Shown here: one piece after another, positions 5,734 through 61,813 of the stretch
Layout: every line of letters starts with the position of its first letter
How positions within the stretch are numbered: the stretch's first letter is position 1
Source: Octopus vulgaris
Lineage: Eukaryota
Direction: 5' to 3'
Assembly (NCBI GenBank): GCA_951406725.2
Contig: OX597821.1
Span: 34,410,001-34,474,000 of the forward strand
DNA length: 64,000 nucleotides
Made by a program: the position numbers and the translations under genes
The notes under the pieces: model-generated
Databases searched by the model: none
Seen by the model: only the letters and a program-made list of their open reading frames with translations
Told to the model about the DNA's origin: nothing

Positions 5734-5786
5734 TGAGAACGTACGTTTCAAGATTAGTCAAACTCGACATTTCTATCATCAGCTCA
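5734..5786 (-). ncRNA. Type I hammerhead ribozyme-like fold with extended stem II
   Basis: Minus strand reads tgag-CTGATGA-(tagaaatgtcgagtttgactaatctt)-GAAA-cgtacg-TT-ctca; palindromic stem III ACGTACGT; first stem II pair is U.U (imperfect). Confidence 0.55.
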
Positions 5787-6006: not shown

Positions 6007-6402
6007 TATAATTTCAACAATTGAGGGTAAAATTAATTAATTAATCAATTTCACCAAGTATTCAGTATGCAAAGGGACCATTTAAGGCGAATTCAAATTA
6101 TTACATTATATAAAAGGGCTTAGTAAAATAAATTACTTTGCCGCATACTGAACTCATTAGAAATAGCAGCTAAAAAAACTTTTTAAAACTATTTCCAATA
6201 CTTTAAGTATTGGAAATAGTTTTAAAAAAGTTTTTTTAGCTGCTATTTCTAATGAGTTCAGTATGCGGCAAAGTAATTTATTTTACTAAGCCCTTTTATA
6301 TAATGTAATAATTTGAATTCGCCTTAAATGGTCCCTTTGCATACTGAATACTTGGTGAAATTGATTAATTAATTAATTTTACCCTCAATTGTTGAAATTA
6401 TA
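6007..6402. repeat. Near-perfect palindrome, about 197-bp arms, 1-nt centre at 6204
   Basis: Arms are reverse complements except for one homopolymer indel; the right end runs into (TA)n. Confidence 0.95.
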
Positions 6403-6635: not shown

Positions 6636-6673
6636 TCTTTCTGTTGAAGAGTGTAGGCTCGAAACGTAAAAGA
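6636..6673 (+). ncRNA. Minimal Penelope-type hammerhead motif, core variant CTGTTGA
   Basis: tcttt-CTGTTGA-a-gag[tgtagg]ctc-GAAA-cg-TA-aaaga; stem III reduced to the ACGT palindrome typical of dimer-forming minimal hammerheads. Confidence 0.6.
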
Positions 6674-32463: not shown

Positions 32464-32470
<7 letters not shown>

Positions 32471-32505
32471 CACAGACCTTTGAAAATTTGTTCTCTTTAT
32501 CTTGG

Positions 32506-32543
<38 letters not shown>

Positions 32544-32585
32544 CCAAGATAAAGAGAACAAATTTTCAAAGGTCTGTGTTCATAT
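32464..32585. repeat. Perfect palindrome centred on a (TA)n tract
   Basis: ATATGAACACAGACC...CTTGGCTT (TA)n AAGCCAAG...GGTCTGTGTTCATAT. Confidence 0.95.
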
Positions 32586-33078: not shown

Positions 33079-33435
33079 CAATTAAGGACAACTTCTTAAT
33101 AAGGACAACTTCTTATTCCGAAAAAAACTTTTCTTCCCCGAAATGCAATTCGTAAAAGTCTGCCATTTACCGGATGTAATATATGTAAACTCACCCATGT
33201 GCTTCGTTGATGTTGATCAGTTAGCTGCTCGGCTCAGACGAGGTAGGGTCATTTATTTATGATACGTCCAGACTTGCTGATGAATACAGAGGTATGAAAT
33301 CACAGGTGATACAAGTCTATATTTTTAAATGTCTTACTTTGAAAAATTGCATTCGGTGGGATTAGTAAAATTTTTGGTAGTAATGACTAATTTTGTCCCT
33401 CTTAGCGTGTGGCATGTATGTATAATAATGCCCTC

Positions 33436-45904: not shown

Positions 45905-46912
45905 AGCATCATCATCATCATCATCATCATTGTTTAACTTCCGCTTTCCATGCTGGTATGGGTTGGACAGTTTGACCGAGGACTGGTGAGCCAGATGGCT
46001 GCACCTGGCTCCAATCTGATCTGGTAGAGTTTCTACAGTTGGATGCCCTTCCTAACGCCAACCACTCTGAGAGTGTAGTGGGTGCTTTTTACGTGCCACT
46101 GTCACAAGGGCCAATCAGGTGGTACTGGCAACTGCCACACTCAAATGGTGTTTTTATGTGCCATCTTCCCAGTTAGCCTTCCTTTTGATATTGCTGCACC
46201 TCTTATGTGTCCATAGCTTACACTAGGTACATATAGAGTTTCTACCTACGCCTTTTCTACAGATCAAGCAGGGCCATCTACCTGAAGGGATTTGGGGTTT
46301 GTCTGCCTTCCTACTTATTAAGACTTTGGTTTTAGCTAGGTTGACTCTGAGGGCCTTCAATTCTGATTCTTGCTTCCACACTTGAAACTTCTCCTCTACT
46401 TCTGATAGTGACTCAGCAATAAGAGCAAGGTCATCAGCATAGAGGAGCTGCCAGGGGCGTCATGTCTTGAATTCCTCTGTTATTGTCTGGAGGACAATGA
46501 TAAATAGGAAGAGGCTGAGGACTGAACCTTGGTGGATCCCTACCTCTAACTGGAATTCTTCACTGTACTCGTTGCCAACCCTCACCTTACTGACAGTGTC
46601 CCTGTACATGGCTTGCACAGCTCTCACTAACCATTCATCTATCCCTAGTTTCCTCATTGACCACTAGATAAGGGATTGGAGGACCCTGTCGAAGGCTTTT
46701 TCCATGTTACCGAAAGCCAAGTACAGGGGTTTATCTGTGGCTAGGTATTTCTCCTGCAGCTGTCTTACCTGAAATATAGCATCAGTGGTGCTTTTCCCTA
46801 GCACAAACCCAAACTGCATCTCGTCTAGACTGACCCTCTCCCTAAATAGTTGGGCTACAACCCTCTCCATAACTTTCATTACCTGATCCAACAGTTTGAT
46901 ACCTCTGTAATT
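45905..46912 (-). pseudogene. RTE-clade LINE reverse transcriptase fragment joined to a family D 3' tail
   Basis: NYRGIKLL, QFGF...STTDAIF, KAFDRV, GIHQGSVLS.FLF, PWQLLYADDL and LRVNLAKTKV motifs with frameshifts; the tail occupies 45905-46163. Confidence 0.92.
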
Positions 46913-47033
46913 GATATTATTTTAAAGAACTGATTTCTGCTGAGTTGAATTCCCCACTTTCTGCTGTGATGTTAACACTAATCATGTAGAAGTTCCCTGA
47001 TATAGTTGGCGCCTTGTGGTGGTGGTGGTGGTG

Positions 47034-60858: not shown

Positions 60859-60894
<36 letters not shown>

Positions 60895-61120
60895 CAACAA
60901 CAATTGAGGAACGGCTACAATAGGCCGTTCAACCCACTAGAAATAGCAGCCAGGGCTCCAACCGCAAATAGTGGTAATTCCGAAATCAAAGGAAAAATTT
61001 AAAAATTAAAGGAAAAATTAAAGGAAAAATTTCGGAATTACTACTATTTGCGGTTGGAGCCCTGGCTGCTATTTCTAGTGGGTCGAATGGCCTATTGTAG
61101 CCATTCCTCAATTGTTGTTG
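60895..61120. repeat. Inverted repeat, 92-bp arms, 42-bp A-rich spacer, next to (TA)n
   Basis: Arms 60895-60986 and 61029-61120; four mismatches, all transitions. Confidence 0.93.
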
Positions 61121-61217
61121 AATGTATTCATAATCTCTGACTATTTCCTCTTTCTCACTAGACCGCTGGTGGCAAAATAATTTCTATTGAATTTTTTGCT
61201 ACCCTAAATTGATTAAA

Positions 61218-61271
<54 letters not shown>

Positions 61272-61437
61272 TAAATATATTTATTAATTAATGATTTTTT
61301 GGCCAATTTTGAAATTAAATCGGGAGTTTATATTTACTGCTGAGTAAACTGCGCGAATGTGGCGGATTTTGAAAATTTATAGCATATAGACTCGAGGCAT
61401 GCTCATTATCACCTCGTGAATATATGGTAGTCCTTGG

Positions 61438-61538
61438 CTTTTCTGCTGATGAGTGCAACGCCTGTGATAAATAAATTTAATTTAATTAATTTAATTTATT
61501 TACAAAAGATTGCCGAAACTATGCATAGTCCAGAAAGG
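61438..61538 (+). ncRNA. Type I hammerhead ribozyme with long AT-rich stem II
   Basis: cttttctg-CTGATGA-gtgcaa...ttgcc-GAAA-ctatgcatag-TC-cagaaagg; palindromic stem III ACTATGCATAGT; GUC cleavage after C61530. Lies in a TA-bounded element at about 61270-61665. Confidence 0.82.
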
Positions 61539-61676
61539 AAAGGGTAAACGTTTTTATTTCTCTTTCCATTTCAGAATTACAACTATTAGTGGTTTGGAGT
61601 TTAGCTGCTCTTTCTAGTGAGTCGGATGTTCTATTATAGCCATCCCTTATATGTTTGAATATAATATATATATAGT

Positions 61677-61813
61677 TAGAAAACAGAGAGATCCAATGGA
61701 TACAAATTAATTTATTAATTAATCAACATATTAACCAACAATTGTTTCTTGTTGGTTAATATGTTGATTAATTAGTAAATTAGTTTGTATCCATTAGATC
61801 TCTTTGTTTTCTA
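61677..61813. repeat. Hairpin, 65-bp arms, 7-nt loop
   Basis: Arms 61677-61741 and 61749-61813; four mismatches. Confidence 0.93.

What the first reader, a model, noticed from the sequence alone, without database searches (positions are those of the whole stretch)
61438..61538. Hammerhead with a 62-nt AT-rich stem II and 12-nt palindromic stem III
Canonical core and GUC site with an 8-bp stem I, but stem II is extended by a long AU-rich hairpin rather than the short stem II of minimal hammerheads. The perfect palindrome ACUAUGCAUAGU in stem III suggests dimeric cleavage (inference from known minimal hammerheads). Standard length-limited searches could miss it.
Basis: partly seen in the sequence, partly recalled or inferred. 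Interest (0 to 1): 0.72.

Follow-up and report, generated by a model that had tools for sequence, protein, structure and literature searches.

The report
Long-armed hammerhead in Penelope-like repeat
A complete hammerhead (self-cutting RNA) motif, with one arm stretched by an AT-rich loop of variable length, sits near the end of a very common repeat that is likely a truncated Penelope-like jumping gene; this kind of motif is already known and this copy is predicted to misfold, so it is a modest variant and not a new ribozyme.

Summary
It is far above chance. It lies in a ~390-bp non-coding piece between (TA)n tracts. That piece is a high-copy repeat in runs of three organisms and ends sharply 130 nt past the cut site. 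This layout matches the 3' end of (TA)n-targeting Penelope-like elements (PLEs), whose hammerheads with palindromic stem III are published; no PLE protein gene is attached here to prove it. The long arm is not fixed. Four contigs bridge it with about 46-58 nt, and most summed depth stops at its edges, so it reads as a slippage-prone AU-rich loop on a 5-bp stem. Plant PLE hammerheads with ~50-nt region II are already in print. This copy carries an extra U (61454), absent from 3 of 4 bridging contigs, that favours an inactive fold (predicted share 0.004 against 0.17). Dimer cleavage is plausible for the family, but no partner copy lies in the window and nothing was assayed. Verdict: real, a known kind, minor variant.

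The parts
61438..61538 (+). Type I hammerhead ribozyme motif (whole)
   Evidence: sequence; Rfam Hammerhead_1 17.5 bits, below gathering 34; a hit in 0 of 300 shuffles
61438..61445 (+). Stem I, 5' strand (pairs with 61531-61538); predicted to extend by 4 bp (61432-61435 with 61541-61544) after a 2x2 internal loop
   Evidence: G61537A, which turns the U.G pair into U-A, in 15, 25 and 11 contigs of three runs
61446..61452 (+). Catalytic core C3-A9 (CUGAUGA)
   Evidence: the only listed core variant is U7 to C, the free position (40 of 56 rows shown)
61453..61514 (+). Region II, 62 nt: closing stem (61453-61458 with 61510-61514, U61454 bulged) around a variable AU-rich loop or hairpin
   Evidence: 14-nt period repeat at 61470-61502; bridging contigs 4, 7, 16 and 16 letters shorter
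61515..61530 (+). GAAA, 12-nt palindromic stem III (61518-61529) and the GUC cleavage triplet; predicted cut after C61530
   Evidence: 0 of 40 shown substitution rows fall in 61507-61536
61531..61538 (+). Stem I, 3' strand
61270..61660 (+). Host repeat: ~390-bp non-coding, high-copy piece between two (TA)n tracts; likely a 5'-truncated PLE 3' end (pseudo-LTR). The 5' limit is approximate.
   Evidence: summed depth about 20,000 falling to under 700 at 61660 in the two deepest runs; TA-rich loose ends there; 0 of 94 nearby reading frames hit Pfam
61545..61628 (+). Candidate 73-nt intron (61545-61617) followed 8 nt later by ATG (61626-61628); inferred from sequence only
   Evidence: the same pyrimidine-AG + 8 nt + ATG spacing in this tail, the 33-kb tail and the foldback right arm (3 of 7 stretches examined; about 0.011 expected per 120 nt); no spliced joint seen
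60883..61132 (.). Neighbouring foldback of two outward-pointing arms related to the tail of the hammerhead repeat
   Evidence: arms 92% complementary; 74-78% identical to the tail at about 61551-61660; 0 of 2000 shuffles score as well

Best explanation
This is a hammerhead ribozyme motif carried near the end of a high-copy repeat that is likely the truncated 3' end of a (TA)n-targeting Penelope-like retroelement; in active relatives it would cut the element's RNA after the GUC, likely helped by pairing of two palindromic stem III arms, while this lone copy is predicted to fold mostly into an inactive shape. Shown: the motif, the repeat, its sharp 3' end at a TA tract 130 nt past the cut site, length variation in region II, and conservation of the GAAA-palindrome-GUC block. 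Inferred: (1) the repeat is a PLE pseudo-LTR left by 5'-truncated reverse transcription; (2) the family's stem II is a 5-bp helix whose loop has swollen by slippage in an AT-rich tract in one sub-lineage, which the ribozyme tolerates because loop II points away from the core; (3) in tandem or partly tandem transcripts two copies form a 12-bp stem III and cleave, perhaps with help from the element's protein, as reported for an anole PLE; (4) the extra U at 61454 weakens stem II and lets 61453-61457 pair with the palindrome instead, so this copy is probably a weak or dead relic.
For: Motif far above chance. Repeat family in runs of organisms A, C and D with 785, 804 and 275 contigs laid; depth is highest near the 3' end and drops at 61660. 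All 3 hammerhead-like sites of the relaxed scan lie 87-134 nt upstream of a (TA)n tract, against a background of 10% of positions. Published Hydra-clade PLEs insert in (TA)n and carry type I hammerheads with 3-5-bp palindromic stem III near the 3' end, including an octopus family; Penelope-1_HM has the same four-base arms as this stem III. Inverted truncated copies next to pLTRs are typical of PLEs, and one related foldback is adjacent. Penelope's pLTR holds a 75-bp 5'-UTR intron; a 73-nt candidate followed by ATG is here. The stem I variant keeps pairing, the core variant is at N7, and 0 of 40 shown rows fall in 61507-61536 against 36 in 275 flanking bases. U61454 is absent from 3 of 4 bridging contigs; removing it raises the predicted monomer hammerhead share from 0.004 to 0.17.
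Against: No RT or GIY-YIG remnant is linked: 0 of 94 frames near the three hammerhead sites hit Pfam, and the only RT hits among the 150 longest of 359 complexity-filtered frames lie 15 kb away. Four short window motifs were absent from the published Naiad, Chlamys and Hydra consensus files (line breaks could hide a match), so the family is not identified. The unpaired base between A9 and G10.1 typical of metazoan PLE hammerheads is absent. Contigs are short, the tool skipped 61466-61506 as repeat, 16 substitution rows and 1918 pieces were not shown, and summed depth is no copy number. Nearest-neighbour folding ignores the core's tertiary contacts and magnesium, so the 'misfolded' call is soft; the natural form that also has C7 drops back to 0.03. 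Nothing was assayed.
Confidence: 0.72

Rival explanations
1. It is a solo monomer of a non-LTR retrozyme, a short non-coding repeat that spreads through small circular RNAs made by hammerhead cleavage of tandem transcripts.
For: The ~390-bp size is within the 350-390 bp of mussel retrozyme repeats. The core lacks the PLE-type bulge and matches the canonical type I consensus. Helix I has a predicted extension with an internal loop. Solo monomers are common, and retrozymes are argued to be PLE pLTR derivatives, so this rival overlaps the main reading.
Against: There is no tandem copy in the window. No backward joint is listed in four runs (contigs show presence, not absence). Depth is strongly skewed to the 3' end with a sharp end at (TA)n. 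Loop II is far too long for the usual loop I-loop II contact.
Confidence: 0.13
2. The long AU-rich arm is a selected functional part of one sub-lineage (a protein-binding hairpin or a folding switch), and this copy or its close kin is an active ribozyme.
For: A long region II is present in contigs of two organisms and in a run guessed to be RNA. The closing 5-bp stem is kept. Region II folds better than most shuffles (23 of 1000 as good). In the form without U61454 the first three bases have two possible partners, 61460-61462 and 61512-61514 (read from the sequence).
Against: Length differs by 4, 7, 16 and 16 letters among the four bridging contigs. The arm contains a 14-nt period repeat and is 92% AT over 61464-61503, where 46 of 1000 shuffles fold as well. 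No compensatory change inside the arm could be seen. The run's RNA label is a guess.
Confidence: 0.12
3. It is a chance arrangement of AT-rich sequence with no ribozyme history.
For: Rfam score is below gathering; z for 61425-61550 is only -1.63.
Against: A hit in 0 of 300 shuffled windows; family variants respect the core and stem I; two more such motifs sit in the same kind of context.
Confidence: 0.03

Closest known systems
[quoted passage not shown] 2021, PMC8557442; section 11 and supplementary Files S1, S2 read)
   Same: (TA)n insertion; hammerhead close to the 3' end; canonical core; 3-5-bp self-complementary stem III; an octopus family (Hydra-1_Obim) is listed
   Different: Their loop 2 is 3-10 nt in the table; the printed Hydra-1_Obim motif is a different sequence; no ORF is attached here, so the clade (Hydra, Neptune or other) is not established
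[quoted passage not shown]
   Same: Type I topology, G10.1-C11.1, palindromic 15.2-16.2 and loop 3, mostly solitary truncated copies, proposed dimer cleavage
   Different: Here stem III is longer (12 nt), there is no unpaired base between A9 and G10.1, and region II is 62 nt against a descriptor limit of 7 bp plus a 10-nt loop
Deviant PLE hammerheads PLE-X1_sMoe and PLE-X1_sTam of spike mosses (same File S2)
   Same: Long region II in a PLE hammerhead: 9 bp with a 35-nt loop (about 53 nt), and about 48 nt
   Different: Plant, endonuclease-less, rDNA-targeting elements; their loops are not AU-rich repeats
Non-LTR retrozymes (Cervera and De la Pena 2020, PMC7229834, passages read; bioRxiv 10.64898/2026.07.22.740005, parts 1-2 of 5 read)
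   Same: Short non-coding repeat with a type I hammerhead; similar unit size
   Different: Defined by tandem repeats and circular RNAs; neither was seen here
Rfam Hammerhead_1 (RF00163)
   Same: All core positions and three stems align
   Different: 17.5 bits against a gathering score of 34, with 60 positions of region II collapsed in the alignment

Membership tests
Hammerhead ribozyme, type I | Core CUGANGA, GAAA and NUH triplet in order | tested here: met
Hammerhead ribozyme, type I | Three helices with helix I open; A15.1-U16.1 and G10.1-C11.1 pairs | tested here: met
   the constrained fold is possible at -15.5 kcal/mol; it is the minimum only for two copies
Hammerhead ribozyme, type I | Rfam RF00163 gathering score of 34 bits | tested here: not met
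   17.5 bits
Hammerhead ribozyme, type I | Self-cleavage after H17 | not testable with these tools
   no assay; contigs cannot show RNA ends
PLE pLTR hammerhead | Palindromic stem III and loop 3 | tested here: met
   perfect 12-nt palindrome; no listed family variant in it
PLE pLTR hammerhead | [quoted passage not shown] | tested here: not met
   A9 is followed directly by G10.1; several Hydra-clade entries are also printed without it
PLE pLTR hammerhead | Helix II of 3-7 bp with a loop of 3-10 nt (published descriptor) | tested here: not met
   62 nt here and about 46-58 nt in bridging contigs; descriptor
PLE pLTR hammerhead | Located near the 3' end of a dispersed high-copy repeat, with (TA)n target and inverted truncated neighbours | tested here: met
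PLE pLTR hammerhead | Family linked to an ORF with telomerase-like RT and GIY-YIG endonuclease | tested here: inconclusive
   none beside this copy; no genome held to look at longer copies
Non-LTR retrozyme | Head-to-tail tandem units, each with a hammerhead | tested here: not met
   single copy in the window; no backward joint listed; the rest of the genome was not seen
Non-LTR retrozyme | Abundant circular RNA of unit length | not testable with these tools
   only contigs were available
Naiad PLE (octopus families, one marked HHR_half_core) | Sequence match to a published Naiad consensus | tested here: not met
   0 occurrences of four window motifs in the supplement; the printed 3' end of Naiad_Obim is unlike this repeat by eye

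The most novel reading that the evidence does not exclude
A sub-lineage of an abundant animal PLE family keeps an active hammerhead whose loop II has grown into a 46-62-nt AU-rich arm under selection. The arm acts as a folding switch (two alternative partners for the first bases of stem II) or as a docking site through which the element's protein gates cleavage. Such long-armed hammerheads, invisible to Rfam and to published descriptors, would account for some PLE families now scored as lacking a ribozyme or having only a half core.
Probability: 0.12. Interest if true: 0.55.

Novelty: new variant of a known kind. Interest (0 to 1): 0.24.

Why it matters
As it stands, little: PLE hammerheads with palindromic stem III are published and occur by the thousand in animal genomes. 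The practical point is that loop II can reach 46-62 nt in an animal repeat, beyond Rfam's threshold and the published descriptors (spacer 7-17 nt in Craig et al.), so counts of ribozyme-bearing PLE families may be too low. It would matter more if the arm proved to regulate cleavage, because the role of PLE hammerheads is still open: in an anole element the ribozyme needed the protein to cut and was dispensable for insertion in vitro (PMC11167929, passages).

Tried and rejected
No whole genome is held for the window, so copies could not be aligned directly. Exact scans for the stem III block found 0 matches in metagenome and viral contigs. A degenerate tail motif gave 2, 0 and 1 loci in metagenome, prokaryote and viral collections; none extended beyond the motif, so they were rejected as chance. 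Sequencing runs: no RNA holder listed. One run guessed to be RNA holds a bridging contig, which says nothing on strand, level or ends. The contig that joins 61441 to 61517 with 17 other letters first looked like a short-stem-II ancestor. As printed it lacks the C11.1-G12-A13 stretch, so it may be a deletion copy, and it is not counted as a working short form. The depth dip across region II is partly an artefact, since the tool skipped 61466-61506. The Naiad idea (half cores at 35-50 nt) was tested against the published consensus files and not supported. A tRNA-derived SINE head was not found (0 genes). A 33-codon frame starting inside the core is trivial and is lost in copies with C7. The bacterial promoter scan is irrelevant to this genome. 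Similarity between the 61-kb and 33-kb tails is only weak (52 of 2000 shuffles as good), and there is none to the 5.7-kb tail (907 of 2000). The atlas search of an RT fragment did not name the host. Lunse et al. (small PLE hammerheads cleave as dimers) and Arkhipova et al. 2017 are not held; the first is cited only through a review passage, and either may already show long-stem-II cases. Seven literature searches listed no paper on this family; bioRxiv supplements are closed and one supplementary file of PMC4209133 was not searched.

Full report
Setting. The window is AT-rich animal-type DNA crowded with microsatellites. Among the 150 longest of 359 complexity-filtered frames, Pfam found only a broken reverse transcriptase at 46226-46921 and four sub-threshold hits. 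I take the host to be an octopus from repeat motifs that I recall; no call confirms this, and no genome is held.

Observation. A descriptor that allows region II up to 150 nt finds 2 sites in the window and a hit in 0 of 300 shuffled windows (thresholds chosen). A relaxed version finds 3 sites against 0.05 per shuffle. Rfam's type I model aligns the core but gives 17.5 bits against a cut-off of 34, and the gathering scan is blank.

Folding. For one copy the predicted minimum (-18.2 kcal/mol) pairs 61453-61457 with the palindrome and destroys the junction. The hammerhead fold is -15.5, with an ensemble share of 0.003-0.004. Stem III alone as a 4-bp hairpin is +0.4 kcal/mol, and as a two-strand duplex -15.9. 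For two copies the minimum is the hammerhead with a 12-bp stem III, 11.3 kcal/mol below two monomers. That figure is for the standard state. At nanomolar RNA the concentration cost is about 12.8 kcal/mol (my arithmetic), so dimers are credible inside one tandem transcript and marginal between separate molecules. The window holds no second copy. These models omit tertiary contacts and magnesium.

The repeat. Contigs of four public runs were laid on 61285-61700 at 80% likeness (4 of the 24 runs listed; organisms A, C, D and A). 785, 804, 275 and 71 contigs fit. Summed depth runs from thousands to 300,000 across 61285-61660 outside region II, peaks near 61610 and falls below 700 after 61662, where loose ends are TA-rich. 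So the motif lies in a high-copy dispersed repeat whose 3' end abuts (TA)n 130 nt past the cut site; a (TA)n tract also precedes it at 61221-61268. Of 40 substitution rows shown (16 hidden), 24 fall upstream of the motif, 12 downstream and 4 inside. The four inside are U7 to C at the free core position, G61537A converting a stem I wobble to a Watson-Crick pair (15, 25 and 11 contigs in three runs), and two in region II. None falls in 61507-61536, where about four would be expected at the flank rate; with hidden rows this is suggestive only.

Is the long arm fixed? Apparently not. At 61463, before the stretch the tool skipped, summed depth is 233 of 5,937 at 61427 in X1, 59 of 8,365 in X4, 0 of 566 in X7 and 41 of 49 in X14. 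Among 32 listed pieces (1918 hidden), four bridge region II, with 4, 16, 7 and 16 letters fewer; that gives about 58, 46, 55 and 46 nt if the gaps lie there. One further contig matches from 61510 onward with 36 unrelated letters before it, which fits a kept 5-bp stem and a different loop. Three of the four bridging contigs lack U61454, giving an unbroken 5-bp stem II, though one of them also has G61455A. Folding the form without that U raises the monomer hammerhead share to 0.17, and to 0.03 when C7 is also present. The arm contains a 14-nt period repeat. The plain reading is a sub-lineage, present in at least two organisms, whose loop II has grown and varies by slippage. Limits: unitigs break at variable sites, summed depth is no copy number, and the contig letters inside the arm were not printed, so covariation could not be tested.

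What the repeat is. All three hammerhead-like sites of the relaxed scan lie 87-134 nt upstream of a (TA)n tract, against 10% of background positions. A foldback at 60883-61132 consists of two outward-facing arms 74-78% like this repeat's tail. Craig et al. 2021 (PMC8557442; passages, section 11, supplement parts 1, 2 and 52) describe inverted truncated copies beside pLTRs, (TA)n targeting, and Hydra-clade hammerheads with short palindromic stem III near the 3' end, including an octopus family. The tail has a candidate 73-nt intron followed 8 nt later by ATG, a spacing shared by 3 of 7 stretches examined; Penelope's pLTR has a 75-bp 5'-UTR intron. This is inference, and no spliced joint was seen. 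PLEs make up 6.83% of the Octopus vulgaris assembly in 190 families (supplement row); that paper's text has no mention of ribozymes. Against the reading: no RT or endonuclease remnant is attached (0 of 94 frames), and four window motifs are absent from the published consensus files.

Mechanism. Most likely the motif belongs to the pLTR of a PLE, where it cuts the element's transcript after GUC, best when two copies in a tandem transcript share a 12-bp stem III, possibly assisted by the element's protein (reported for an anole PLE, PMC11167929, passages). The long loop II points away from the core and is tolerated. This copy is a 5'-truncated, solitary relic with an extra U that favours misfolding. 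Confidence 0.72. Rivals: solo retrozyme monomer 0.13, selected regulatory arm 0.12, chance 0.03.

Comparison with what is known. Palindromic stem III and dimer cleavage are published for PLE hammerheads (PMC4209133, parts 1-2 of 4; review PMC6765202, passages; PMC3088659, passages). Long region II is also in print for two spike-moss PLE families, about 53 and 48 nt, flagged as deviant, and very long helix I inserts are known from the Clec2 hammerhead (PMC6155905, passages). The motif works like a PLE hammerhead. It fails two descriptor features (the bulge after A9 and the loop 2 length), and the defining ORF link is untested, so I file it as a variant and not as a proven member of a named clade. 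Seven searches listed no paper on this family or on a long AU-rich loop II in an animal PLE; two relevant papers were not held.

Verdict. Real, correctly described, of a known kind, with a long but variable loop II. Interest 0.24.

Noticed in passing
window 33270-33318 (+): A second, unrelated type I hammerhead: 7-bp stem I, intact core, 4-bp stem II with a 4-nt loop, 12-nt near-palindromic stem III with a central mismatch, AUA triplet. It lies in a ~360-bp piece between (TA)n tracts. Rfam gives no match; the two-copy fold is the hammerhead. Its tail has a branch-point-like motif, a pyrimidine tract, AG at 33405 and ATG 8 nt later.
   Followed up: partly
window 5734-5786 (-): A third, decayed hammerhead-like motif: intact core, 8-nt palindromic stem III, 26-nt poorly paired region II, 4-bp stem I, 87 nt from a (TA)n tract.
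   Followed up: partly
window 6636-6673 (+): By eye: a minimal hammerhead-like motif with 5-bp stem I, a bulged A, 3-bp stem II and a 4-nt palindromic stem III, but with U in place of A6 in the core. Not scored or checked in other copies.
   Followed up: no
window 6016-6393, 60883-61132, 61677-61813 and 32469-32580: Four long foldbacks, each touching or enclosing a (TA)n tract. The first two share a short motif with the hammerhead repeat's tail. They would give long double-stranded RNA if transcribed, and the two near the finding give many sub-threshold Rfam microRNA hits.
   Followed up: partly
window 46226-46921 (-): Broken reverse transcriptase in three frames (Pfam RVT_1, best E 2.2e-07); not linked to the hammerheads, clade not determined.
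   Followed up: partly
window 61453-61462 and 61510-61514: In the natural form without U61454, the first nine bases of region II can close a 3-bp hairpin by themselves, and the same GCC triplet recurs at the far end. The arm could therefore have entered as an insertion with a 3-base duplication. Read from the sequence; untested.
   Followed up: no
PMC8557442 supplement: Eight Naiad families, including an octopus and a squid one, are marked as having the two halves of a hammerhead core 35-50 nt apart. Long-armed or permuted hammerheads may lie behind that label. Not tested.
   Followed up: no
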